Part shown: positions 3,200-29,167 of the stretch, in pieces
Position numbering within the stretch: position 1 is the first letter of the stretch
Layout: the number at the start of each line of letters is the position of its first letter
From: a virus
Taxonomy: Duplodnaviria > Caudoviricetes
Length of the DNA: 29,167 nt
Direction: 5' to 3' (one strand)
Virus record (IMG/VR): IMGVR_UViG_3300007344_000166
Location: 1 to 29,167 of that record
The notes under the pieces: generated by a model
Seen by the model: only the letters and a program-made list of their open reading frames with translations
The model's database searches: none
Told to the model about the DNA's origin: nothing
Program-made: the position numbers and the translations under genes

Positions 3200-3609
3200 G
3201 CTACGCCGGCGGGTGATCTTGGCTGTTCACCCTAAATCATCGACGCATAGGCCGTTCTTTTCTAACAGCTTGTTGATCTGGGCAACCGCCCGCCTTTTCT
3301 TAAAATACTCGACTGCCTCTTCGACCCATTCCTCCAAATGGTCGTCAAAATTCGAATGATCTTCTGGCACAAACTCCCACAACAAAGCCTCATCGACAAG
3401 CGCGCGCCAGTGAAGCCCATCACTAACGCCGCACCATCCTTCGCTTTCGATTTCTGGCAACCCGTGATCGGTTACAATCTTTTCGATCACCACCAAAAGC
3501 TCTCCAACCGCTTTGTGTAGCAACGCGCCACTTTTCAACTCTTCACTCATTGCTTTCATCCTCCTCATTCTCACCGACCCGCTACGCCATCGGGTGATCT
3601 TGGCTGTTC
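3200..3609. repeat. Pair of 29-bp direct repeats (3200..3228 and 3581..3609) bracketing one gene
   Basis: gctacgcc(gg/at)cgggtgatcttggctgttc, 27/29 identical. Confidence 0.85.
3227..3550 (-). CDS. Acidic hypothetical protein, 107 aa (MSEELKSG...)
   Basis: ATG at 3550 preceded by GAGGAGG; downstream of the repressor-like gene on the same strand. Confidence 0.65.
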   Translation of the reverse strand: MSEELKSGALLHKAVGELLVVIEKIVTDHGLPEIESEGWCGVSDGLHWRALVDEALLWEFVPEDHSNFDDHLEEWVEEAVEYFKKRRAVAQINKLLEKNGLCVDDLG

Positions 3610-3893
3610 TCGATCTCTTTCTCATTCGCAAGGCCGCCGCTGCTTTCCATGTCGTAAACCCGCCCCTCGCCGTTCTTCTCCGGCGCTTTGATTTCCTCCA
3701 CAAGGAAATCCCGCAGGCCAACCAGCCCGATCTTTTTCATCGCCTTGAGTCCGGCCGCTACTGACAGCCGAATCACATCCTGCTTGGAAATCTGAAACTC
3801 CTCAGCAACCGAGGCGATTTCCTCATTTTGCTCAGGAGTAAAACGCACGGCCACCGGAGCAGTCCCGGGCCGAGTCTGATTCTTTTTTGCCAT
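3582..3893 (-). CDS. Ribbon-helix-helix (CopG/Arc-like) regulator, repressor position
   Basis: PVAVRFTPEQNEEIASVAEEFQISKQDVIRLSV fits strand-helix-helix RHH pattern. Confidence 0.72.
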   Translation of the reverse strand: MAKKNQTRPGTAPVAVRFTPEQNEEIASVAEEFQISKQDVIRLSVAAGLKAMKKIGLVGLRDFLVEEIKAPEKNGEGRVYDMESSGGLANEKEIENSQDHPMA

Positions 3894-3973
3894 GCCCAAA
3901 TTTTACCGGTATCAAAAAAAAATACAATTCTTTTTTGACACCTTTGTATGACTGGGATATACACGCCTCAACC
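3894..3973. promoter_or_regulatory. Divergent promoter/operator region
   Basis: AT-rich. Rightward TTGACA(3935-3940)-17-TATACA; leftward TTGTAT(3927-3922)-16-TAAAAT(3905-3900). Inverted repeats ggtatcaaaaaa/ttttttgacacc and atacaa/ttgtat. Confidence 0.7.
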
Positions 3974-4135
3974 ATGAGCACTCCAACCGAGAACCACCCC
4001 CAGGCCGTCCGCCTCGATGACGAGGCCCGCCGAGAAATCGAACGCCTCGCCAAAAAACTTGGCGTTTCCAAGTCCGCCCTCATCCGCATGGCCCTTGCCA
4101 AAGGCCTGCCCAAAGTCCGAGCCGCCTTCGCCTGA
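3974..4135 (+). CDS. Ribbon-helix-helix regulator, Cro position, 53 aa
   Basis: QAVRLDDEARREIERLAKKLGVSKSALIRMAL is a typical CopG-type RHH. Confidence 0.82.
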   Translation: MSTPTENHPQAVRLDDEARREIERLAKKLGVSKSALIRMALAKGLPKVRAAFA

Positions 4136-6215: not shown

Positions 6216-6562
6216 CTGAAAGCCCGGAATTCAACGCCCTTCTCAACTTCCGACGTCTCCGCGACGCGAAGTTAAACACGATTTACCAAATGATCATCCT
6301 CCTCGCCATCAAGCTCGATCCCGAGATCACCACGACGGACCTTGCCAAAAGCCTCAATTCCTCCCGGGCCGGTGCCAGCCACCAAACCCACCATCTACGG
6401 AAGAAAGGTTTTCTCGACTGGCGCCCTCGCACCGAGGACGAGGCCAGACGCCAACGCTACGGCCGCACGCACACCCGACGTTATTTCCTCACCGAGACCG
6501 GCGAGGCCCTGGTCTCGTTCGCCGCCCAAATTCCCTTTCCTCCCGACGCCGTGACCCCATGA
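6212..6562 (+). CDS. MarR-like winged-helix DNA-binding protein
   Basis: ITTTDLAKSLNSSRAGASHQTHHLRKKGFL...YFLTETG. Confidence 0.78.
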   Translation: MTESPEFNALLNFRRLRDAKLNTIYQMIILLAIKLDPEITTTDLAKSLNSSRAGASHQTHHLRKKGFLDWRPRTEDEARRQRYGRTHTRRYFLTETGEALVSFAAQIPFPPDAVTP

Positions 6563-6780
6563 AATTCCTTTCCTTATGCTCCGTCCGCCGCCTCACTCCT
6601 CGCGAATGCGAGCGCCTTCAGGGATTCCCCGACGACCACACGCTCATCCCTTGGCGCGGAAAGCCCGCCGAGAATTGTCCCGATGGGCCCCGCTACAAAG
6701 CCCTTGGAAACTCGATGGCCGTCCCCGTTATGGCGTGGATTGGCCAGCGAATCGAAACCATCTCGAAGCTCCTCCCATGA
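6559..6780 (+). pseudogene. Internally deleted DNA cytosine-5 methyltransferase remnant
   Basis: Start of motif I (MKFLSLCS) joined directly to motifs IX-X (RRLTPRECERLQGFPD...RYKALGNSMAVPV); catalytic PCQ and ENV absent. Confidence 0.82.
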
Positions 6781-8175: not shown

Positions 8176-8549
8176 TGAAAGTCCTCCTCTACCAAGGCCC
8201 CGACCTGGTCGACCAACCGGTCCGCACCGCCGGCCAGACTTCTCTTTTCCCAAATCCCGCCCGCATTGAAGACCGCGTTCTCGCCGCAGTCACCGAGGCT
8301 TACGACGTCACCCTCGCCGAGCTTGTCAGCCCTTCCCGCAAGCCGCACTTTGTCTGGCCCCGGCAACTCGCCATGGCCCTCCTCCGCGAACTCAGCCCCT
8401 ATTCGCTCGAATTCATCGGGCAGCTCTTTGGCCACCGGGACCACTCCACCGTGATCTACGCCATCCGCCGCGTGGAAACCCGCAGCGACCTCGCCGGAGA
8501 CCACCCGGGAGAATACCAATCCCTTCGCCGCCAGCTTCTCAAACCATGA
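8172..8549 (+). CDS. Stand-alone DnaA C-terminal (domain IV)-like DNA-binding protein
   Basis: SRKPHFVWPRQLAMALLRELSPYSLEFIGQLFGHRDHSTVIYA matches the DnaA domain IV signature. Confidence 0.88.
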   Translation: MMKVLLYQGPDLVDQPVRTAGQTSLFPNPARIEDRVLAAVTEAYDVTLAELVSPSRKPHFVWPRQLAMALLRELSPYSLEFIGQLFGHRDHSTVIYAIRRVETRSDLAGDHPGEYQSLRRQLLKP

Positions 8550-9217
8550 AATCTTTCGGCTACCCCATCCACTACGATGACTTTTGGGAGCTTTGCGACC
8601 CGAACCCGGATTCTCCCTTTCACCGACCCTTCGATCTTGGCCACGGGGAAACCTGCCTCGCCAATTCCCGCATGGCCCTCCGCACCACCCAGGCCGTTCA
8701 CGCCGAGGATTGCGTCCCCTTCGATCAATCCCACACCGCCCGCGAGCGCATTCTCCGCCTCGATTGGTCCTTCTTTGATTTTCCCGAGCGCCGAGACCTC
8801 AAGGTGGGAGCCCTCCGCGACTGGGAACATTCATGGCGCCCTCTCACCGAGCGCGGAGGCCTCATTGCCCGCCCTCCCGTTCCCGCGTGGGAACCCACCA
8901 CCGACTCCGCCAAGCGCGGAGGATTCGACTTTGTCGACAAGCCCCGCCTCACCGTCGGAGCCGACCTCGCCGTAATCCCCGTTTCCATTTTGCAGCTGAT
9001 CCGCCGACTCCCCAACCCCGAGATCTTCACCGCCCGATACCAAGCCCCGACTCTTTCAAATCTCGAATATCGCTGGCTCTTCTTCCGCTTCACCGGTGGC
9101 CGGGGCATGGCCCCCAGCGTCCCCATGAAAGCCGGTCGCCCGTGGGACGGCATCCCCCCGGCTTATTCGATCTATGTCCCCACGCACGACACCCAACTCG
9201 AAATCCTCAACCCATGA
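8546..9217 (+). CDS. Hypothetical protein, 223 aa
   Basis: ATGA overlaps at both ends; phage-typical codon usage. Confidence 0.7.
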   Translation: MKSFGYPIHYDDFWELCDPNPDSPFHRPFDLGHGETCLANSRMALRTTQAVHAEDCVPFDQSHTARERILRLDWSFFDFPERRDLKVGALRDWEHSWRPLTERGGLIARPPVPAWEPTTDSAKRGGFDFVDKPRLTVGADLAVIPVSILQLIRRLPNPEIFTARYQAPTLSNLEYRWLFFRFTGGRGMAPSVPMKAGRPWDGIPPAYSIYVPTHDTQLEILNP

Positions 9218-9498
9218 GCGACACACCAGAAACAGATCAAAATTGCCTCGAAAACCCGAGCCCGATTCGCGAGGTCGTTTGCTCCGATTTTGCGCGGAAG
9301 CTCGAAAGAGAGCGCGATAAGGCCCAGGAACTAGCTGATGACCAATACGAACGGGCGAAGCATTACTTTAACGAGCGCAACAAGGCCGAGCTTCGAATCG
9401 CCATTCTCGAGCAAGACATAGCCCTGATCCGCAAGATCATCAAAAAGGGCGGGACCGCGCAGGACGTCATGAAATTCTTGGACACGCCGGAAGCATGA
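9214..9498 (+). CDS. MSDTPETD-type coiled-coil protein, copy 1, 94 aa
   Basis: Near-identical to 10589..10873; ATGA overlaps. Confidence 0.78.
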   Translation: MSDTPETDQNCLENPSPIREVVCSDFARKLERERDKAQELADDQYERAKHYFNERNKAELRIAILEQDIALIRKIIKKGGTAQDVMKFLDTPEA

Positions 9499-9668
9499 GC
9501 AAAGACCAACTACCAGAAAACACCTATTACAAATGCGGAACCTGCGGGAAAAAATACACCCTAAGCCTTTGGGAAAGCGTATTAAAGCGGGTCGGGTGCG
9601 TTGAACACGTCGTTTGCACTTGCAGCAGGAATCCCCCTGTGTGGAGAAAAATCAAAACAAAGCCATGA
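9495..9668 (+). CDS. Small zinc-finger-like protein, 57 aa, below ORF track cutoff
   Basis: MSKDQLPENTYYKCGTCGK...VCTCSR; ATGA overlaps at both ends. Confidence 0.6.
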   Translation: MSKDQLPENTYYKCGTCGKKYTLSLWESVLKRVGCVEHVVCTCSRNPPVWRKIKTKP

Positions 9669-10278: not shown

Positions 10279-10592
10279 ACACCACTTCACAACCATCTTC
10301 AATCTTCGAATTGGTCGATTCGACCGCCGATGAGTATTACACCCTCGGACTTTTTTACAGCAAAGAGGAGGCCCTGGCCACCGCTACCAAAGGAGACCAC
10401 CCGCCGACCGATTGCGAAGACAGCGCAACGCTACAAATCCGCGAGCGCAAAATCGGATTCACCGGATGGGGCAACAACGGAAAAATAATCGCGGAAATCC
10501 GGTGGGAAATCTCCTTCGATGAAGACGACGACGACTGGGGATGGGAAACCCCGAGTGTCTTTCTCAAAGATCAAACCGAGCCCAACCCATGA
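10275..10592 (+). CDS. Acidic hypothetical protein, 105 aa
   Basis: ATGA overlaps at both ends. Confidence 0.7.
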   Translation: MNTTSQPSSIFELVDSTADEYYTLGLFYSKEEALATATKGDHPPTDCEDSATLQIRERKIGFTGWGNNGKIIAEIRWEISFDEDDDDWGWETPSVFLKDQTEPNP

Positions 10593-10873
10593 GTGAAACA
10601 CCAGAAACCGATCGAAAATGCCTCGAAAATCCTAGCCCGATTCGCGAGGTCGTTTGCGCCGATTTCGCAAGGAAGCTTGAAAGAGAGCGCGATAAGGCCC
10701 AGGAACTAGCTGATGACCAATACGAACGGGCGAAGAATTACTTTAACGAGCGCAACAAGGCCGAGCTTCGAATCGCCATTCTCGAGCAAGACATAGCCCT
10801 GATCCGCAAGATCATCAAAAAGGGCGGGACAGCGCAGGACGTTATGAAATTCCTCGACAGGCCGGAAGCATGA
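10589..10873 (+). CDS. MSDTPETD-type coiled-coil protein, copy 2, 94 aa
   Basis: About 94% nucleotide identity to 9214..9498 by hand count. Confidence 0.78.
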   Translation: MSETPETDRKCLENPSPIREVVCADFARKLERERDKAQELADDQYERAKNYFNERNKAELRIAILEQDIALIRKIIKKGGTAQDVMKFLDRPEA

Positions 10874-15638: not shown

Positions 15639-16637
15639 ATGACCGATGCCCCCACCGCCGAACCGACCGCCCTCCAACAGCAGTCCCAAGACCCCCCGGC
15701 CACGCCGCCCAGCCAATCCGCGCCCCGGCCCACCCGCCTCGCCGCTGCCGCTGGTGACCCCCCGGCCACCCCGGCTACTCCGCAGGCCGCGCCCGTGACC
15801 ACGCAGGCCCCCGCCCGGGGACCAGTCCAACCCACCGCCCAACCGGACAACACGCCACCCCTCCTCGGAGACGATCTGTCCCTCCGCCCCGGATGGGTCG
15901 ACGCCCTCCCCGAGGAATACCGCGAGCACTACAAGACCGGCGCGAAATTCGACAATCTTGGAGGCCTCCTCAAATCCTATTCCAACCTCGAACGCCTCCG
16001 CAGCATTCCTTTACGCGACGCACCCGACGAGGTGAAAGCCGCTTTCCGCGACGCCAACAAAATCCCCGGAGATCCCGCCGAGTTTGCCAAACAAATCCCT
16101 CTCCCGGAAGGACAGGAGATCCCGCCGGAGCTCATTGCCCGCGCTGCCCAAGCCGGCCTCGAGGCCAACATGCACCCGTCGCAGATGGGCGCCATGATCG
16201 ACTTCCAGCTCCAACTTTCCCAAGACGCCCTCACCCAGGCCGAGCAATCCGCCCAAGCCGAGAAGGACAAAGCCTTCGAAGCGCTCGAAAAGGAATGGGG
16301 ACGCGACACCGAAGCCAATTACAGCAACGCCACCAGCGCCGCGAAAATGCTTGGCCTCGACATCGCCGACCCAAACATCGGAGACAATCCCTCCCTCATC
16401 GGAGCCCTCGCCAAACTCCACGCCAAGCTCGATGAAGACACCCTTCGCAGCGTCGCCAATGCCGGACCCGTGAATTCTGGAGGTGGCATGGGAGACCGCG
16501 CCAAGGCCCGCGACATCGTGAACAACCCCGCCAACCCGCTTTACAAGCCTTACCACGACCCCAGCGACCCCGCGCACGAACGCGCCCACCAGCAGGTGGA
16601 TCTGTTCAATGCGGCCGCCACCGGCTTCCGCCCGTGA
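15639..16637 (+). CDS. Capsid scaffolding protein
   Basis: Pro/Ala-rich N-terminus, KSYSNLE, LEKEWG motifs; between portal and capsid. Confidence 0.82.
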   Translation: MTDAPTAEPTALQQQSQDPPATPPSQSAPRPTRLAAAAGDPPATPATPQAAPVTTQAPARGPVQPTAQPDNTPPLLGDDLSLRPGWVDALPEEYREHYKTGAKFDNLGGLLKSYSNLERLRSIPLRDAPDEVKAAFRDANKIPGDPAEFAKQIPLPEGQEIPPELIARAAQAGLEANMHPSQMGAMIDFQLQLSQDALTQAEQSAQAEKDKAFEALEKEWGRDTEANYSNATSAAKMLGLDIADPNIGDNPSLIGALAKLHAKLDEDTLRSVANAGPVNSGGGMGDRAKARDIVNNPANPLYKPYHDPSDPAHERAHQQVDLFNAAATGFRP

Positions 16638-16646
16638 TAAAATAAT

Positions 16647-16724
16647 GCGTAGGCCCTTCCCGGCGAGGCTCTTCGATGGCTAGGGGAACTCAGAGAAAAC
16701 CCATGACCCGGGAAGGTCCTACGC
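16647..16724. ncRNA. Putative structured RNA: 17-bp stem closing a 44-nt loop; strand unknown
   Basis: gcgtaggcccttcccgg pairs with ccgggaaggtcctacgc at 16/17. Confidence 0.5.
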
Positions 16725-16729
16725 TCCAC

Positions 16730-16930
16730 TTTTCTCTGACTCGATGGCATCGGTAATGTTTAACTACCCAGGGCGCCAAAGCTGGCCTCTTGGCTTGCTA
16801 CTGGTGAAAACAGGCAAACTGCCTCGACCCTACCTGGCACGCGACCGGAGATAGGGCAAAAGATCGAAGCGCCGGATACGTTGGCAGTCGTCAAAAAAGC
16901 CGGATTCCGGTGCCATCGACTCAGAGAAAA
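16730..16930. repeat. 24-bp inverted repeats (16730..16753 and 16907..16930) flanking 153 bp
   Basis: ttttctctgactcgatggcatcgg versus ccggtgccatcgactcagagaaaa, 22/24 complementary. Confidence 0.9.
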
Positions 16931-16947
16931 AACCCACGCCCCGCCTC

Positions 16948-16977
16948 ACCGCGCCACCACTGGCGCGGTTTTTTGTT
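16948..16977 (+). terminator. Rho-independent terminator
   Basis: accgcgcca-ccac-tggcgcggt followed by a T run. Confidence 0.8.
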
Positions 16978-17199
16978 GACGCACACCCGCGCCCGTGCTT
17001 AAACGGGCCCACAGCTTGGCAGAGGACAATCCTTTCGGACCCGCTCCCAAGTCATTCCCAGGGATGAATTGAAACTCCCCAGGTCTCACGACCCGCGCAA
17101 ACGCGCCTCCCCGGTCAATCCGCATGGACCCGGTTGGATGGAGCCGACGCCGGCCAATCAAAGCCGCCCTCGAACCCAAACCCAACCCACTCAAAAACC

Positions 17200-18141
17200 A
17201 TGCCCACTGATATGACCGTGCCTGATCATTACCAGATCAAGTATGCCGACACCTTCGAATCTCGCCTTCAACAGAAGGTGAACCGCCTCGCCCCTTTCGT
17301 CACCGTGAAGCCGGACGCGAAAGGCAAGGTCTGCTTCCTGGACCAGATCCAGCCCATCGACCTCGACCAGAAGACCAGCCGCCACGAGAAATCCCAGCTC
17401 ACCGAGCCGGATACCCTCCGCCGCGCGATGGTCGCCAAGACCTTCCACAAGATGATTGGCTTTGACGAGGACGACGAATTCAAGCTCAACAGCCAATCCG
17501 TCCCCATGCCGGAAACCGCCATGCAGCTCATGTATGGAGCGCAGCGCGCCATGGAGAAGGTCGTCATCGACGGCATCTCTGGCGTGAACCAAGTCGGCAA
17601 CGGAGCCAATGACCTCCTCACCACCGAAACCTTCCCAAACGCGAATGAAATCGCCGTGACCGAAGGCTCCGCCGGTGGTGGCACCAACACCAACATGCCC
17701 ATCGACAAGGTGATGGCCGCTATCGAGAAACTGATGGTCGACGAGGCTTTCGGCCAAGCAAACGACGACGGCCTCGAAATGCCCTGCCTTGCCCTTGGAC
17801 CCTCGCAGCTTGTCGACTTGATCCGCCAGACCAAGGCCAGCTCGAAGGACTACCAGCCCGGAGACAACCTCGCCCTCTTCACTGGTCGCCTTGAGCAGAT
17901 TCTCGGATGCAAGATCCTCCTTACCAACCAGCTCGAGGTCGCTTCCAACATCCGCACTTGCCTTGCTTGGGTGAAACCGTCCGTCGGCTTTGGCCTCTGG
18001 AAGAACTACTCGACCCACCTTTGGGTGGACGAGGAAACCGGTGGCCCTCGCCTCCGCGTTCACATGGCCTGCGGAGCCGCCCGCCGGGACACCAAGGGAG
18101 TCTTCAAGCTCTTTGCCGACGAGACCAAGAAATCCGCCTAA
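17200..18141 (+). CDS. Major capsid protein, 313 aa
   Basis: LQQKVNRL N-terminal motif, GAARRD C-terminal motif, size, position after scaffold, followed by a strong hairpin. Confidence 0.88.
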   Translation: MPTDMTVPDHYQIKYADTFESRLQQKVNRLAPFVTVKPDAKGKVCFLDQIQPIDLDQKTSRHEKSQLTEPDTLRRAMVAKTFHKMIGFDEDDEFKLNSQSVPMPETAMQLMYGAQRAMEKVVIDGISGVNQVGNGANDLLTTETFPNANEIAVTEGSAGGGTNTNMPIDKVMAAIEKLMVDEAFGQANDDGLEMPCLALGPSQLVDLIRQTKASSKDYQPGDNLALFTGRLEQILGCKILLTNQLEVASNIRTCLAWVKPSVGFGLWKNYSTHLWVDEETGGPRLRVHMACGAARRDTKGVFKLFADETKKSA

Positions 18142-18157: not shown

Positions 18158-18194
18158 TAAAAAGGGGGGAGGCCCCACGCTTCCCCCCTTTTTA
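18158..18194 (+). terminator. Terminator hairpin after capsid gene, potentially bidirectional
   Basis: taaaaaggggggagg...cttcccccc-ttttta. Confidence 0.78.
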
Positions 18195-22772: not shown

Positions 22773-24940
22773 TGCCCCGCGTCCCTGACTTCCAACTTCA
22801 GCAGTCCTTGGCCGTCCCCGGAGACGCCGAGGGAGTTTCCCGCACGATGCTTTCCACGGTGCAAGCCGCCACCGGTGTCGCTGGTAATCTCCTCGACGCT
22901 GGCCAGACGGTGGTAAAGACCCTGAAACGCCAGCAGCAAATCGAAGACCGAAAGACCGCCCTCGACGCCCGCTTGGGAATGCAGGCCAATCTTGCCGAGT
23001 TCGAAAGGTCGCTCGAAGGAGTCGACCCGAAGGAATGGGTTTCCCGATTCGATGAAAACGCGCAGCAATACAAATCCCAGTTTCTCGCCCAGGACTACCC
23101 GCCAAACGTCCGACGCGAACTCGAGCTCGAAGCCAATCAGGCTTTCGGACGCGCCCGCATTCAGATTGCCGGTGCCGCTCTGAAAAAAAACGTGGGCCTG
23201 ACCCGCCAGAAATACGGGCAGGAAATCGACCTCCTCACCAAGCGAGGAGAAACCGCCGCCGCCAAGGCCCGCCTCGATGAGGCCAAAAATCTCGGAATCA
23301 TCGACGATCCGGATTACGACGCGCAGGCCCAGCAGATCGACGCGTTCGAGCAGATCACCGGCCTTCACGACCTCATCCTCGACCACCCCTACAAAACCCT
23401 CAAAACAATCCAAGCGCCGGACTTTCTCAAGAAGTTTCCCGCCCTGACTCTGGCCGATCAAGCCGAACTCGAAAGCGTCGCGACCCGCGCCATCAATGCC
23501 GACCGCGCGCAATTCTGGGAGGCCGCCGTCGAGGCCGCCAACAACCCGGACAACCCGAAGATCCTCACCGACGAGGAACTTTCCACTCTGGCCGACCAAG
23601 GCCAAATCACGCAGACCCAGCGCGCCAAATACCTCGAGGCCTACCGCCCCGACACCGCCCAGCCTTTCGATCCCGCTATCTATCAAAAGGCGATCACCAT
23701 GATTCGAGGCTACACTCCCGAAAATGATCCCGACGGCTTCGAAGCCGCGACGATCCGCGAGACGCTTTCCAATCTCAACCTGCCGACAAATTACCGTCGG
23801 GAGCTTGGCAAGCGCTTCACCGCCCACCTGAACGAAGACGCCACGCCGACGCGATCCGGCAAAAAAATCCGCCCCAATCTTCGCCCCATCGAAAAGCACT
23901 TCGCCGACCTCCACAAGAAATACCTCGAAGCCGGAAAATTCGGCGGATGGATCAATCTCGAAGACCACGACCAGGACGAATCCACCGCGCCAAAGGAAGT
24001 GATCGACTTGAAAGCCTACAACCGCGCAAACGCGCTGGCCATCGACTTCCAAACAATGTGGGAAAACCATCTCGCCAACGCGCCCGAGGATTATCCTTCC
24101 ACCCAAGCCGCCCTCGATTTCGAAACGCTTTACCAAGACTTCCGTTCCAAGGGACCTTCGCCCTTTGAAATGCCAAGTCTCCCGCCGCCCGTGGATTTCG
24201 ACAAGCGCCTCCGCGACCTCATTGGAGACGAGGGAGCCAAAGGAACCCCGGGCACTCCCGGCACCGCCAACACCGACACCGCCAAAGCAAATGGCCCAAC
24301 CTACCACCTTGGCTTTTCCACTTACCCGAAGCGCCAAGCGATCTTCCGCGCCGGTGGAACTCCCATTCTCCTCGACACCAACTTCTCGACCGCCGAGGGA
24401 GGCATCGCCCACCCGCTGATGGTCATCCCCGATGAAGCAACGCAGGCCCAGCGCGACGCCGCCCAGGCTTACGTCGACCGCGTCGCCAAAACTCTCAACA
24501 GCCGATTCGGCCGCCAGATGAAAGGCCGCGTGGTGACCCGATCCGAAAACGGACGCGGTCGCGCCTACGCTTTCCACACGGAGCCTTTCGCCCTGTCAGA
24601 CCGACCCGTCGCCCGTTTCATGGCCACCCCGGAAGGTCTCGAAACCCACCGCCAGATCATCCGCGAAACGCTGGCCAAGGCCCCCGGCGCCCAGTTTTTC
24701 CTGCCCCACTCGCCGACCGATCCCGGCGCCACGGTGGGAAATCAAAGCGAGGTCTCGATGGCACGCGAACTCCTCCGCGGATTCTCGACCGACCTCCCGC
24801 CCGCAGCTCTCACCGCCCCCCGGCCCGAGGCCCAAACTCTTTGGCACCGCACTACCCGCCCCACTTCTCCCGCTGAAATTCGCGAAGGCCTCGACGAGCT
24901 CGACACCCTCCGCGCCATCCACAAGCACTCCCAGCAATGA
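22772..24940 (+). CDS. Internal virion (ejection) protein 2, gp15-like, with C-terminal globular domain
   Basis: MPRVP start, long helical region, position; 722 aa. Confidence 0.68.
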   Translation: MPRVPDFQLQQSLAVPGDAEGVSRTMLSTVQAATGVAGNLLDAGQTVVKTLKRQQQIEDRKTALDARLGMQANLAEFERSLEGVDPKEWVSRFDENAQQYKSQFLAQDYPPNVRRELELEANQAFGRARIQIAGAALKKNVGLTRQKYGQEIDLLTKRGETAAAKARLDEAKNLGIIDDPDYDAQAQQIDAFEQITGLHDLILDHPYKTLKTIQAPDFLKKFPALTLADQAELESVATRAINADRAQFWEAAVEAANNPDNPKILTDEELSTLADQGQITQTQRAKYLEAYRPDTAQPFDPAIYQKAITMIRGYTPENDPDGFEAATIRETLSNLNLPTNYRRELGKRFTAHLNEDATPTRSGKKIRPNLRPIEKHFADLHKKYLEAGKFGGWINLEDHDQDESTAPKEVIDLKAYNRANALAIDFQTMWENHLANAPEDYPSTQAALDFETLYQDFRSKGPSPFEMPSLPPPVDFDKRLRDLIGDEGAKGTPGTPGTANTDTAKANGPTYHLGFSTYPKRQAIFRAGGTPILLDTNFSTAEGGIAHPLMVIPDEATQAQRDAAQAYVDRVAKTLNSRFGRQMKGRVVTRSENGRGRAYAFHTEPFALSDRPVARFMATPEGLETHRQIIRETLAKAPGAQFFLPHSPTDPGATVGNQSEVSMARELLRGFSTDLPPAALTAPRPEAQTLWHRTTRPTSPAEIREGLDELDTLRAIHKHSQQ

Positions 24941-27900
24941 GCGACCTCAATCCCTCTCCCTTCATTGCCTCGCCTCTCGCCCCGATCAATCTCGCCGAGG
25001 AATACGGCCCCGAGTCCGAATTGACCGAAGCCCGCGCCTTCCAGGCTCTCCATCTTCTCGAAGCTTTCCCAAAACCAACCATCACCCCCGGCACTCCGCC
25101 GCCCCCAAATCCTCTCCGCGATTACCTCCGCCGATACGCCGCCGACCGCGAATCAAGAGGACTAAAGTTTTTCCCCAAGGAAAACGCCAAGGCCAACCAA
25201 AAGCGCATTCAATACTCCCGCGATCTTTACCTCAAATCGCCCGAAGATCTCCTCACCGGCGACCAGTTGAAGGCATATGAAGCCGACCTAACCGAGATGC
25301 CGGACCCGGACTCCTACCGCGCCCGCCAGACCAACCGCGCCTATTTTAACCTCATCGCCCCGACCCCCATCGCGCCCGACCGATACGACCTGGTCCGCGA
25401 TGAATACGCCCGCGCCGTCCTCAAACTCGACGACACTTCCGACAAGGCCGTCTTCTCAGCGATCCAAGCCCAATTCCAAGAGGAAGCGTCCGCCTTCGAT
25501 TCCTTGAAGCCCCTGGCGAAAGAAGCATTCGACAAAGGACTCACCGGCCAACCGTTGTCAGCCGCCGACCGGTGGAGGGCCACCGCCGCTCTCCCCGCCA
25601 AGCACAAGCGGAACGCGCGCGAAGTTCTCGCCGCGCAACACCAAGAAGCGCAAGCCACTCGCCGCCGCCTCATGCCGACGGTGAAGTTTCTCGCCACCAG
25701 CATGCTTTCCCGCCGGGGAATGGACGTTCCCCGCGACCTTGCCTCGCCTGAAGCCTCCGCCACTTCGCGAGAATGGCTTCGCGCCCTGGGAGAACTCAAC
25801 CCGCCCGACCGCGCCGCCGCTCTTTTCATCCTCTCGCAGGAGATGGAAAAGCTCGACACCGCCGACGACTCCGCCGGCACGTTCAAACGCGCCGCCACCA
25901 ACGCTAGCAAAACCGCCCTCCAGCTTCTCGAGTCCGCTTTCACCATGATCGACAGCGAGACCTCGGAAGGTTTCCTCGATGAAGAAGACCGTTGGACCAT
26001 CGACGCCGACGAACGCGCCCGCCTGACTGCCGCCCTTCAAGGCATTGAAAGCATTCCGGAGAATTTCCGCCCCGATGATTCCGCCTTGCAAAAGGCCTTC
26101 ATTGCAGGCTCAGGCCAAGCCGCGATCTTGGGCTCCCTCTTCACCGGCGCCGCAGGCCTGACGTTTCTTGGCACTTCGATGGCCGGACAATCCTACGCCG
26201 GCCAGCGTCTCGAATCTCCCGAGGCCGACCGCGCGATCCAGTACGGCGCCGCCACTCTTTCCGGCACTGCCCAGGCCGCCACCGAAATTTATTTGACCAA
26301 GCTTGGTCTCAAAATGATCGGTGGCCGTCTCCCCGGCCTCGCCACTCTTTTCACCAAAGCCCGCATCACCGCGCCCGTTGCCCGCTCTCTCGCCGCCTTC
26401 CCTCTCGCCGCCGCCGGTGCCTCCGCCGTGGAATTCACCGAGGAGATTGTTCAAGACGCCACCGACAATCTTCTCTCCGACATCGCCAACGAGCTTTCCG
26501 GCATTGATCCGGCCACCGATTGGGGAGAATTCCTCACCCGCTGGACCACCAAAAACCGCACGACCGAGGAGGTCTTTTACGCCATCGTCCCTTTCGCTCT
26601 CATTGGCTCCGGCGTTGTCGCTTCTTTCCGACATTTCAAGCACGGCGCATACCTCCAACAGGCCACGCCCATCATGGCGAAGATGGGTTTCCGTTCCGAC
26701 AAAATCAAAGAGATCCGCGAAGCTTCTCCCGAGGAAGCCGCCAGGATTGTCAGAGAAGAAATCAAGCACGTTAAGGAAAAAGCAGAAGACCGATCGAAAG
26801 CCGCCGCCGCTTCTCAACCGGCCAGCCAACTTGCCAAGGAAGCACCCAACCGCGCCGCCAAACAATTTGATCTTTTCCACGCTGGGGACCAATCCCTAAC
26901 TTTCGAAACAATTTCAGTAGATCCCAGAAAAACCCGCCAAGGGAAAACTGGGACTTATGGAGGCCTCTACACTTTTGACAATCAAACAGAAGCAGACAAT
27001 TGGAACTCTGACCTGGAAGGCAAAGAGGTTTTTGGCATCAAACTCAAAGATGGAGTCAAAATTGAGCAATATGACAAACAAATCGAGCGACTTGACCAAA
27101 CCGAACTTGAAAATCTTAGGGCACAGGGAATCAAAGTAATTTCGGGCAAATCACTACTCGGAAAAAGGGAGATCGTTATCATCGACAAAACCGCCATTGC
27201 CTCTTTTGAACCTCTGAGCAAATTGCAATCTGACAATTCTTCTAAGACTTCCCAAGATGAAAGCGAACGATCCTCTGTGCTTGAAAGTTTCCGCGAGGCT
27301 GCCGAGCTTTCCCAAAAGGCCGGTTTCCCCATCCTTGAAACCGAACTCAATGAGTTCACCGAACAAGAGCAATACGTCCTCCGCCTGCCCGAGCAGGAAG
27401 AACAATACTTTGACGACGAGGAACAAGCCATCGAAGCCTGGCAAGACTTCCTGATTCAGCAGCAAAACGAAGTTTCCGCCGAGGTCATCCGCGCCGCAAA
27501 CACCGACCTCATTTCCTTCCTCACCGAAGAATCACAACTTGCTTTTGGGACCAAGGTCCGCGAGCGCGACGTTGAAATGGACGCCGCCCGGGCCGTGAAA
27601 GAAGGCCTGGCCACGATGGAGCAAATCAAAGCCCGCGCCCGCATCTTCGCTTTGCAGGAAGGGAGCTCCACCGCACCCGATTTTGCGATCATGGCCCGCC
27701 GCTGGGCGGAGGTGACCACCCGGGGAATTTACCGCGCCACGGTGGAATACTACCGCGGAGCCAATCCTCTTAACATCCTAGAAGACCTCGCCGAAACCAA
27801 CATCGACAAGGGGCTCACCATGGGAATGCTCGACGGCGCCGAGCTTGTTTCCGAACTCCGCGCCCTCGAGGAAGCCACCGGCAACGCATACATCGCCGAC

Positions 27901-29167
27901 GATTACACCTACGCCGACACCGACAAAATGCCCCTCCTCGAGGCCATGTCAAAAGCGGGCGTGGAATACTTCATGGGGAACATCAAAAACGACATGATCC
28001 CCTCGACCATCCGCCGATGGTTCCAACAAATCCTTGCCGTCGCCGGAGCGATGTTCCGCCACGCCCGCACGCTCGCCCGATCCGAACCGCTGATGAAGGC
28101 GATCAAGGAAGGCCGCGTGAATCAAAAGTTTGTCGACCTCATCGCCGACAGCGTCGGATTGAATGAAGCCAACACCGAGGCCCGCTACCGCGCCGCCGAG
28201 CAGCAGGCCCAAGAGCAGGCCCTCAATTCCGACCTCGAAGAGATTTCCGACGTCCTCCGCGGCCGCCTCCCTCACCCCGACAGCATGGCAGGTGACCCCA
28301 TGGCTTCCGAACTCCGCGTCATTCACGATGGCATGGTGAAGGTGAGCAAGCGCCGGAACAAGAAGGGCCAGCGCCTTCTCAACACCCGCAAGGCCGACAA
28401 CTTCTTCCTGCCGCGGGGCGAGGTCGTTTCCATCGACGGCATTCGCGAGGAATTGAACGAGCGCGGATTCGACTTCGACACCGAGGCCGACATGCTCGCC
28501 GCCCTCGACGACTCTCTCTACCGCAACCTCAAAACCTACGCCGTAGGAACGATGGAGCAGGAGACGACCTATTCGATTTCTCAGTTCAGTACAGGCATGA
28601 GACCACCGAAAGGTGTGACCAGTAGAAAAACGGAAGCCCTGCCAGTTTGGAATATAGAGAAGCAAAAGGATAGCCTTCCAAAGGTAATCGCCAACAAAAC
28701 ACAGCGTGAGGCTTTCTTTAAAAGGTTGGATGATGCGCTGGATTGGCTGCGTGAAGACCCTTCCAAATTGGGAACAGCTGGAGGATGGGTGAAATTCTTG
28801 AGGAAAGCAGGGGTCTATGGGGAGGTTCCAATGCCTCCCACTGGAATCACGGAACTATTTGAAAACCCTGCTGGATACGCTGAAAAAGTTCGGGGGGCGT
28901 ATCATGGGGACCTGGCTATTTCGGGAACAAACGCATCAGCAAAAGCGGGGTTAGACGGAACAAAGGAAATGCGTGAGCTTATCGGGGAAGGGAAAGCCCC
29001 TGCCCCTTGGACGGTTGCTCTGCATCATCTTTGGGGGATTCTTTCAAGAATGCTTCCACCCATCGATCAGGAGGGGATGTGGTTGCGCCTAATTGCTCAC
29101 CGACCTGTTCTTGAAGCGATTCAGTCTTCAATCGATGGGAATTTCGATCTGTCTTTGGATCAGTGGA
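24937..29167 (+). CDS. Large internal virion (ejection) protein 3, multi-domain, >1410 aa, runs off window; not in ORF track
   Basis: ATGA overlap at 24937. No stop in the stretches translated by hand, and the track lists no closed ORF in this frame. Gly/Ala hydrophobic region at about 26100-26620. Confidence 0.85.
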   Translation, partial: MSDLNPSPFIASPLAPINLAEEYGPESELTEARAFQALHLLEAFPKPTITPGTPPPPNPLRDYLRRYAADRESRGLKFFPKENAKANQKRIQYSRDLYLKSPEDLLTGDQLKAYEADLTEMPDPDSYRARQTNRAYFNLIAPTPIAPDRYDLVRDEYARAVLKLDDTSDKAVFSAIQAQFQEEASAFDSLKPLAKEAFDKGLTGQPLSAADRWRATAALPAKHKRNAREVLAAQHQEAQATRRRLMPTVKFLATSMLSRRGMDVPRDLASPEASATSREWLRALGELNPPDRAAALFILSQEMEKLDTADDSAGTFKRAATNASKTALQLLESAFTMIDSETSEGFLDEEDRWTIDADERARLTAALQGIESIPENFRPDDSALQKAFIAGSGQAAILGSLFTGAAGLTFLGTSMAGQSYAGQRLESPEADRAIQYGAATLSGTAQAATEIYLTKLGLKMIGGRLPGLATLFTKARITAPVARSLAAFPLAAAGASAVEFTEEIVQDATDNLLSDIANELSGIDPATDWGEFLTRWTTKNRTTEEVFYAIVPFALIGSGVVASFRHFKHGAYLQQATPIMAKMGFRSDKIKEIREASPEEAARIVREEIKHVKEKAEDRSKAAAASQPASQLAKEAPNRAAKQFDLFHAGDQSLTFETISVDPRKTRQGKTGTYGGLYTFDNQTEADNWNSDLEGKEVFGIKLKDGVKIEQYDKQIERLDQTELENLRAQGIKVISGKSLLGKREIVIIDKTAIASFEPLSKLQSDNSSKTSQDESERSSVLESFREAAELSQKAGFPILETELNEFTEQEQYVLRLPEQEEQYFDDEEQAIEAWQDFLIQQQNEVSAEVIRAANTDLISFLTEESQLAFGTKVRERDVEMDAARAVKEGLATMEQIKARARIFALQEGSSTAPDFAIMARRWAEVTTRGIYRATVEYYRGANPLNILEDLAETNIDKGLTMGMLDGAELVSELRALEEATGNAYIADDYTYADTDKMPLLEAMSKAGVEYFMGNIKNDMIPSTIRRWFQQILAVAGAMFRHARTLARSEPLMKAIKEGRVNQKFVDLIADSVGLNEANTEARYRAAEQQAQEQALNSDLEEISDVLRGRLPHPDSMAGDPMASELRVIHDGMVKVSKRRNKKGQRLLNTRKADNFFLPRGEVVSIDGIREELNERGFDFDTEADMLAALDDSLYRNLKTYAVGTMEQETTYSISQFSTGMRPPKGVTSRKTEALPVWNIEKQKDSLPKVIANKTQREAFFKRLDDALDWLREDPSKLGTAGGWVKFLRKAGVYGEVPMPPTGITELFENPAGYAEKVRGAYHGDLAISGTNASAKAGLDGTKEMRELIGEGKAPAPWTVALHHLWGILSRMLPPIDQEGMWLRLIAHRPVLEAIQSSIDGNFDLSLDQW

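What the first reader, a model, noticed from the sequence alone, without database searches (positions are those of the whole stretch)
16647..16938. Hairpin loop with two boxes matching opposite strands of an adjacent, twice-present site (split-guide geometry)
Seen: the 44-nt loop holds box A TCGATGGC (16673-16680) and box B ACTCAGAGAAAA (16688-16699). The neighbouring site GCCATCGA-CTCAGAGAAAA (16912-16930, inverted copy 16730-16748) is revcomp(A) directly followed by B. One box therefore matches each strand of contiguous half-sites. Established: IS110 bridge RNA loops and TIGR-Tas guides recognise DNA with this two-strand geometry. Inference: either a guide-like RNA whose target is next door, with no recognisable effector in the window, or an RNA switch in which the loop pairs alternately with each arm of the 24-bp duplex (B with 16730-16739 would be a pseudoknot), controlling read-through into the capsid gene. 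Similarity to the right copy extends to CCCA, so local duplication may explain part of it.
Basis: partly seen in the sequence, partly recalled or inferred. Interest (0 to 1): 0.85.

Follow-up and report, generated by a model that had tools for sequence, protein, structure and literature searches.

The report
Rearranged repeat mimicking a guide RNA
A 300-base non-coding stretch in a bacterial virus carries a hairpin whose loop matches both strands of a neighbouring repeat, but this is likely a by-product of local DNA duplication and flipping rather than a working guide RNA, and no partner enzyme was detected in the complete virus genome.

Summary
The pattern is real and beyond chance: a 19-nt split match, with 0 of 5000 shuffles reaching 17. 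It lies in a ~310-bp accessory stretch between the scaffold stop codon and its terminator in a temperate phage. The guide reading fails most tests. The complete 37-kb genome shows no IS110 or Nop protein. On the strand that would be transcribed, the boxes have the opposite polarity to TIGR and bridge guides. There are no significant C/D boxes, and the overlap is 1 nt, not a 2-nt core. The read-through switch also fails: the terminator folds in every state tested, and the capsid gene has its own conserved promoter-like site. A simpler history fits. Box B and its reverse complement bracket a 30-nt spacer holding the hairpin's 3' arm. Flipping that spacer in silico gives a colinear tandem copy of one element with ~35-bp inverted ends, which accounts for the stem, A, B and the CCCA tail together. 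Support is moderate, since each extra feature has a chance level of about 1-8%. No diverged homologue or read data was available, so covariation and expression are untested. An orphan guide using a host IS110 enzyme is unlikely (~7%) but not excluded.

The parts
15639..16637 (+). upstream gene, probable capsid scaffold protein; the insert lies in its 3' untranslated region
   Evidence: ORF; PHROG 3742, unknown function, and weak PHROG 458, protease; scaffold role inferred from its position between portal and capsid
16647..16663 (+). 5' arm of hairpin 1
16664..16707 (+). 44-nt loop, only weakly paired on the + strand and more paired on the - strand
16673..16680 (+). box A: direct copy of 16741-16748, preceded by a further 4-nt match after a 3-nt gap
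16688..16699 (+). box B: direct copy of 16919-16930; its last 10 nt and 16730-16739 form an inverted repeat around a 30-nt spacer
16700..16710 (+). loop tail matching the right flank 16933-16943 at 9 of 11 positions after a 2-nt gap
16708..16724 (+). 3' arm of hairpin 1, inside the 30-nt spacer proposed to have been inverted; followed by TCCA (16725-16728)
16730..16753 (+). left arm of the 24-bp inverted repeat; holds a dyad at 16742-16752 and an ATG at 16744
16754..16906 (.). 153-nt interior; no more structured than shuffles; no promoter-like site; no homologue found
   Evidence: z -0.5 (+) and -0.05 (-)
16744..16854 (+). 36-codon open frame starting in the left arm; no evidence that it is a gene
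   Evidence: exact sequence not in the protein collection; no PHROG match
16907..16930 (+). right arm of the 24-bp inverted repeat
16948..16975 (+). intrinsic terminator-like hairpin with T run; folds independently of the insert
16976..17004 (+). promoter-like site for the capsid gene (TTGACG, 17-nt spacer)
   Evidence: top score in the region, and among the top 3 of 58266 positions, with a matrix built from 13 homologous junctions
17201..18141 (+). major capsid protein gene
   Evidence: PF19821, E 1e-40

Best explanation
The stretch is likely an accessory insert in the scaffold gene's 3' untranslated region whose guide-like loop probably arose from local DNA rearrangement, not from selection as a guide. 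Proposed history (inferred): (1) an element with ~35-bp inverted ends was duplicated in tandem; (2) the first copy lost its interior, leaving a piece of its left end (A) next to its right end (B); (3) the 30 bp between copy 1's B and copy 2's reverse-B were inverted, by polymerase template switching or a host invertase. That inversion turned the duplicated 17-bp flanks into a hairpin. Because the two ends of an inverted repeat are complements, a loop holding part of each end matches both strands automatically. The two helices would form on the packaging-operon transcript and could affect its 3'-end stability or processing (inferred). They are not predicted to gate the terminator.
For: Shown: A and B occur in the loop in the same order and orientation as in the neighbouring left and right arms. 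Flipping 16700-16729 in silico extends the inverted repeat outward by 11 nt (9 of 11 match; local score 42 to 53). It also aligns the two 17-nt flanks colinearly with the 4-nt piece and A, giving 31 identities in 44 columns. The guide model does not explain the 4-nt piece or the tail. A local score as high as the 4-nt piece plus A was reached by 153 of 10000 random 24-mers, and the 11-nt tail by 142 of 10000. The junction is variable in relatives: 12 of 16 distinct homologous scaffold-capsid junctions are 350 bp or shorter, 4 of 16 are 582-1478 bp, and this one is 562 bp. None of them matched the insert by BLAST. Spacer inversion by template switching at inverted repeats is documented (PMC8604942 passages). 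Template switching between arms was first found in phages (PMC5941160 passages). The only G-U wobble favours the + strand, whose box polarity is non-canonical.
Against: Part of the flip result is circular, because inverting any hairpin arm yields a direct repeat. Only the colinear A piece and the tail are independent. The tail test depends on the length chosen: 788, 142, 730 and 2462 of 10000 for 9, 11, 13 and 15 nt (1482 of 20000 for 13 nt). The model needs at least four events in about 90 bp. No ancestral or unflipped form was found: four assemblies are identical, and pattern scans found no other copy. The documented yeast spacer inversions were 2-5 bp, in coding DNA, not 30 bp. Perfect blocks (stem 16/17, A 8/8, B 12/12) separated by diverged stretches are also what selection for base pairing would leave.
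Confidence: 0.5

Rival explanations
1. Antisense RNA cassette working like P4 CI or P1 C4 RNA, or like a type I toxin-antitoxin mRNA. The 78-82-nt hairpin would be cut out by RNase P. B would pair with the region just upstream of the 36-codon frame and A with the right arm, controlling translation of that small frame rather than capsid read-through.
For: A 7-bp terminal stem is followed by TCCA. CI and C4 RNAs are cited as hairpin-like RNase P substrates (PMC5499578 passage). On the + strand each box has one complement downstream, with duplex energies of -11.9 and -12.5 kcal/mol. The full 24-bp helix sequesters the ATG at 16744. The sizes and mechanisms of CI and C4 are recalled, not checked.
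Against: No Rfam match at gathering score; only chance-level matches, E 0.095 or worse. The arm-arm duplex (-37.6) outweighs either box. The locus is in the packaging operon, far from the repressor region near 3585-4135. The 36-aa peptide has no long hydrophobic stretch and no homologue.
Confidence: 0.2
2. Protein-driven invertible or miniature mobile element. The three copies of the B core are binding or crossover sites for a host or phage recombinase that flips the 153-bp or the 30-bp segment, with no RNA involved.
For: The arm length is within the 10-40 nt range of invertons (PMC11892184 passage). Verrucomicrobiota are rich in invertons (PMC13343947 passage). The three exact TCAGAGAAAA copies in the window are all within this insert. 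The phage encodes a tyrosine integrase.
Against: No promoter-like site lies inside the segment, and the terminator lies downstream of it. The Akkermansia inverton motif is only half matched, at 16901-16906. The integrase gene is 14 kb away. No copy of the element was found in 401 family-level or 391 order-level genomes. All four assemblies show one orientation.
Confidence: 0.15
3. Orphan guide RNA: a single-loop bridge-like or tigRNA-like RNA, loaded on a host IS110-family protein, recognises both arms and flips or binds the segment between them.
For: The 19-nt two-strand match is beyond chance. The box lengths, 8 and 11-12 nt, are in the TIGR range. The - strand RNA has the canonical polarity. 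A CUU lies in the 5' stem arm on both strands, and CUU marks processing of stem-loop tigRNAs. PF02371 is found in 54 of 121 genomes of the likely host family. Orphan IS110-linked small-RNA modules exist (PMC12288879 passages).
Against: No PF02371, PF01548 or PF01798 match in the complete genome. The + strand polarity is non-canonical, and reverse-complemented spacers did not guide TasR. No - strand promoter was found, and the boxes are largely paired on that strand. The best C/D-box fit has 2 mismatches, equalled or beaten by 109 of 300 random windows. It is one unit with one loop and a 1-nt overlap. No likeness to 20 sampled IS110 loci (best 12 nt, E 0.79).
Confidence: 0.07

Closest known systems
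Stem-loop TIGR arrays (tigRNA with TasA/TasR)
   Same: A stem closes a loop with two 8-12-nt segments, one matching each strand of adjoining half-sites; phage location.
   Different: No Tas protein, no array, no significant C/D boxes, opposite polarity on the + strand, and the target lies next door, whereas the split guide is proposed to avoid self-targeting.
IS110/IS1111 bridge RNA; Piv-type DEDD invertases
   Same: Two-strand recognition; the - strand order equals the LTG-then-RTG order; two inverted sites would suit inversion.
   Different: One loop instead of two; 1-nt overlap instead of a 2-nt core read by both guides; no recombinase gene; 24-bp repeats against 7-17-bp sub-terminal repeats.
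P4 CI RNA and P1/P7 C4 RNA
   Same: A short hairpin RNA with a 3' NCCA and single-stranded boxes complementary to the same transcript.
   Different: Not in an immunity operon, no Rfam match, no effect on the terminator in folding models.
Template-switch spacer inversions at short inverted repeats; intergenic invertons
   Same: 10-12-bp and 24-bp inverted repeats around short spacers, near-perfect arms.
   Different: The spacer is 30 bp, longer than the yeast cases seen; no invertible promoter; three sites rather than two.

Membership tests
TIGR-Tas (stem-loop) | Nop-domain Tas gene near the array | tested here: not met
   PF01798, PF02371 and PF01548 gave no match in complete G001 at E<=1; 46 proteins against PHROGs and 28 against Pfam gave none. 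A very divergent Tas could be missed.
TIGR-Tas (stem-loop) | box C (CCA) before and box D (UG) after each spacer | tested here: not met
   best fit has 2 of 10 mismatches on either strand and frames other spacers than A and B; 109 of 300 random 53-mers do as well or better
TIGR-Tas (stem-loop) | tandem array of units | tested here: not met
   one such hairpin among the 7 inverted-repeat pairs found in the window
TIGR-Tas (stem-loop) | two 8-12-nt spacers on opposite strands, gap of at most 2 bp | tested here: met
   8 and 11-12 nt, contiguous
TIGR-Tas (stem-loop) | polarity: target = first spacer + revcomp(second), deduced from the 8-nt 3' overhang | tested here: inconclusive
   not met for the + strand RNA, met for the - strand RNA; the transcribed strand is inferred, not measured
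IS110 bridge RNA | DEDD recombinase encoded by the element | tested here: not met
   present in 54 of 121 genomes of the likely host family
IS110 bridge RNA | [quoted passage not shown] | tested here: not met
   one loop only; the interior is not structured beyond shuffles
IS110 bridge RNA | core dinucleotide paired by both guides | tested here: not met
   the overlap is 1 nt
IS110 bridge RNA | covariation of guides with sites across orthologues | not testable with these tools
   only identical copies were found
Transcription attenuator / RNA switch | alternative pairing that disrupts the terminator | tested here: not met
   the inner terminator pairs have P=1.0 in all 5 constrained folds; pseudoknots and folding kinetics were not modelled
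P4 CI / P1 C4 antisense RNA | RNase P-type stem with 3' NCCA and single-stranded boxes complementary to the same transcript | tested here: met
   sequence features only, processing untested
P4 CI / P1 C4 antisense RNA | match to a curated family, and location in the immunity operon | tested here: not met
   the locus lies between scaffold and capsid genes
Intergenic inverton | 10-40-nt inverted repeats around a short segment | tested here: met
Intergenic inverton | promoter inside the segment; known Akkermansia repeat motif | tested here: not met
Intergenic inverton | both orientations present in reads | not testable with these tools
   no read data could be examined; four assemblies share one orientation
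Retron | reverse transcriptase beside an a1/a2-bounded structured RNA | tested here: not met
   no RT family among the proteins scanned; interior z about -0.5

The most novel reading that the evidence does not exclude
A phage-borne orphan single-loop guide, transcribed from the - strand, borrows a host IS110-family recombinase to flip the adjacent repeat-bounded segment: an RNA-guided inverton. Its guide was born in place by duplication and inversion of its own target, which would show one route by which split guides acquire matched spacer pairs.
Probability: 0.07. Interest if true: 0.85.

Novelty: new member of a known kind. Interest (0 to 1): 0.3.

Why it matters
Under the likely reading it is a useful caution. 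Any partial copy of an inverted-repeat element produces a statistically strong split-guide match, so scans for TIGR- or bridge-like RNAs need polarity, box and duplication controls. If the guide reading held, it would be an effector-less RNA-guided inversion module in a phage. It would also bear on how paired spacers arise, which the TIGRFinder preprint lists as unknown.

Tried and rejected
Homologue searches gave only identical copies or chance hits. These were: phages by blastn; plasmids; viral-contig patterns; capsid, scaffold and portal protein scans; 401 family-level and 391 order-level genomes. Ten of the 14 distinct short genome hits were inspected and none reproduced the element. The two extra hits (L147, L149) and the nine extra hits are unrelated. 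The closest metagenome relatives (L006-L008) end before the insert position, and L009 lacks the insert. A global colinear alignment (52 of 53) used near-free gaps and is disregarded. The 71-codon frame 16764-16976 has no credible relative. No tRNA or tmRNA was found. A REP-like reading of the GTAG-led arms found no repeated family. The 223-aa orphan ORF at 8546 gave no usable Atlas hit. The tRNA-like att stretch matched 0 of 401 genomes at 3 mismatches, so the host stays uncertain: portal relatives lie in six Akkermansia and two alphaproteobacterial bins. The profile search of capsids added no DNA context. An RNAalifold run on the capsid leader gave only 7 pairs. The scan's earlier notes held nothing.

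Full report
Context. The window is most of a temperate phage. It carries an integrase, small and large terminase, portal, capsid, tail and internal virion genes. An identical complete record, G001, is 37058 bp with terminal repeats. Its extra 7.9 kb holds a long internal-virion-type frame, an endolysin and a tail gene. The host is uncertain. Portal relatives at 27-36% identity lie in six Akkermansia and two alphaproteobacterial bins, and capsid relatives were found in 48 of 401 genomes of the Akkermansia order. The finding lies between the probable scaffold gene (stop at 16637) and the capsid gene (17201).

Observation. Everything described is present. The 19-nt split match was not approached by 5000 shuffled loops or by 1421 other windows (maximum 16). 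It was the best of 37 large-loop hairpins in the loci then held (next best 15). The 336-nt region folds better than all 100 shuffles on both strands (z -5.1 and -3.5). The 153-nt interior alone does not (z -0.5). Rfam has no match at gathering score and only chance-level matches below it.

Anatomy from relatives. In 16 distinct homologous junctions with a recognisable scaffold gene, 12 are 350 bp or shorter and 4 are 582-1478 bp; 12 of the 16 have TTGAC 170-202 nt before the capsid. The usual order is stop, terminator, promoter, conserved leader, capsid. The window has the same terminator (16948-16975) and a promoter-like site at 16976, the best score in the region and among the top 3 of 58266 positions. 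That matrix was built from 13 chosen junctions; the plain sigma-70 scan found no promoter in the region. The ~310 bp before the terminator is therefore likely an accessory insert. It was found only as identical copies. It was not found in annotated phages, plasmids, 401 family-level or 391 order-level genomes. These genome sets are samples and partly overlap.

The switch reading. With the left arm blocked, with the B or A pairings imposed as blocks, or with both, the inner terminator pairs stay at P=1.0. The capsid appears to have its own promoter downstream. Control of read-through into the capsid is therefore not supported. Pseudoknots and folding kinetics were not modelled.

The guide reading. 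For TasR, an 8-nt 3' overhang (PMC12045711 passage) requires the target to read first spacer, then the reverse complement of the second. Bridge loops have the same order (PMC11208160 passages). The + strand RNA here has the opposite order, and only the - strand RNA is canonical. The + strand is the likelier transcript: it follows the scaffold gene, ends in the terminator and holds the only G-U wobble. No - strand promoter stood out. C/D boxes are at chance level (109 of 300 random windows do as well). There is one unit, one loop and a 1-nt overlap. G001 has no PF02371, PF01548 or PF01798 match. In favour of the guide reading: the box lengths fit, CUU lies in the stem, IS110 proteins occur in 54 of 121 genomes of the likely host family, and orphan IS110-linked RNA modules exist (PMC12288879). 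Twenty sampled IS110 loci showed no likeness to the insert.

Best explanation. A is a direct copy of part of the left arm and B a direct copy of part of the right arm, in the same order as in the neighbouring element. B and its reverse complement at 16730-16739 bracket exactly the 30 nt that hold the hairpin's 3' arm. Inverting that spacer in silico extends the long inverted repeat outward by 11 nt (9 match). It also lines up flank, a 4-nt piece and A colinearly in two tandem copies, 31 identities in 44 columns. This suggests tandem duplication of an element with ~35-bp inverted ends, loss of the first copy's interior, and inversion between the facing ends. The two-strand match then follows automatically. 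The sequence relations are shown; the history is inferred. Against it: the flank becoming a direct repeat is circular; the tail's chance level ranges from 1.4% to 25% with the length chosen, and the 4-nt piece plus A is at 1.5%. Several events are needed, and no intermediate was found. The documented yeast spacer inversions were only 2-5 bp. Perfect blocks between diverged stretches also fit selection for pairing. Origin by rearrangement does not exclude later use. I put this reading at 0.5.

Rivals. A CI/C4-like antisense cassette (0.2) is suggested by the 7-bp terminal stem followed by TCCA, and by B being complementary to the bases just upstream of a 36-codon frame that starts in the left arm. 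The peptide has no support as a gene. A protein-driven inverton or miniature element (0.15) fits the arm length and the three B cores, but lacks an internal promoter and the Akkermansia motif. An orphan guide using a host enzyme is put at 0.07. The remainder is unassigned.

Literature seen. Passages only: PMC12045711, PMC11208160, PMC5499578, PMC12288879, PMC11892184, PMC13343947, PMC5941160, PMC8604942. Abstract and named sections: bioRxiv 10.64898/2026.09.09.750476, sections 5, 7, 11, 13; 10.64898/2026.08.11.744272, section 5. No supplement was read; tigRNA and bridge RNA sequence tables there could refine the box test. The CI and C4 mechanisms and sizes, type I toxin mRNA folding, the REP GTAG hallmark and the retron layout are recalled. 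Seven searches found no description of this element; the library lacks most subscription papers.

Verdict. The feature is real and so far private to one phage. It is probably a rearranged repeat that mimics a split guide. Covariation, expression and inversion remain untested. Interest 0.3.

Noticed in passing
window 17005-17200; L007, L009, L017, L021-L023, L026, L050, L095: The capsid leader is conserved across distant relatives, with a repeated AATCC/AACC...GGACC motif and no Rfam match. It may be an undescribed cis-regulatory RNA or a repeated protein-binding site. The RNAalifold consensus was weak (7 pairs, 1 with compensatory change).
   Followed up: partly
L115-L144, about 150 nt upstream of the capsid match: Prophages in genomes of the Akkermansia order share a related capsid-leader pattern with apparent hairpins, and several carry gene-sized inserts upstream of it.
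   Followed up: no
window about 1270-1326, - strand: The 3' part of a tRNA-like sequence (GTA anticodon, Tyr-like) beside the integrase, probably attP; 0 of 401 genomes matched at 3 mismatches.
   Followed up: partly
window 16744-16854 (+) and 16830-16916 (-): Both repeat arms hold an inward-pointing ATG, giving 36- and 28-codon frames that stop in the same symmetric hairpin (16828-16856). This may be chance.
   Followed up: partly
L036 4934-5782, L040 9490-10072, L072, L082: Relatives carry unrelated inserts of 300-1200 bp at the same scaffold-capsid junction.
   Followed up: partly
window 9214-9498 and 10589-10873: Two near-identical ~95-codon reading frames about 1.4 kb apart, with a third similar start at 9665.
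   Followed up: no
window 6559-6780: A stand-alone 73-aa C-terminal piece of a DNA methyltransferase.
   Followed up: no
window 24937-29167 continuing into L014 1-5222: One internal-virion-type frame of roughly 3100 codons spans the window end.
   Followed up: no
window 18158-18194: A 16-bp hairpin with A and T runs on both sides after the capsid gene, a likely bidirectional terminator.
   Followed up: no
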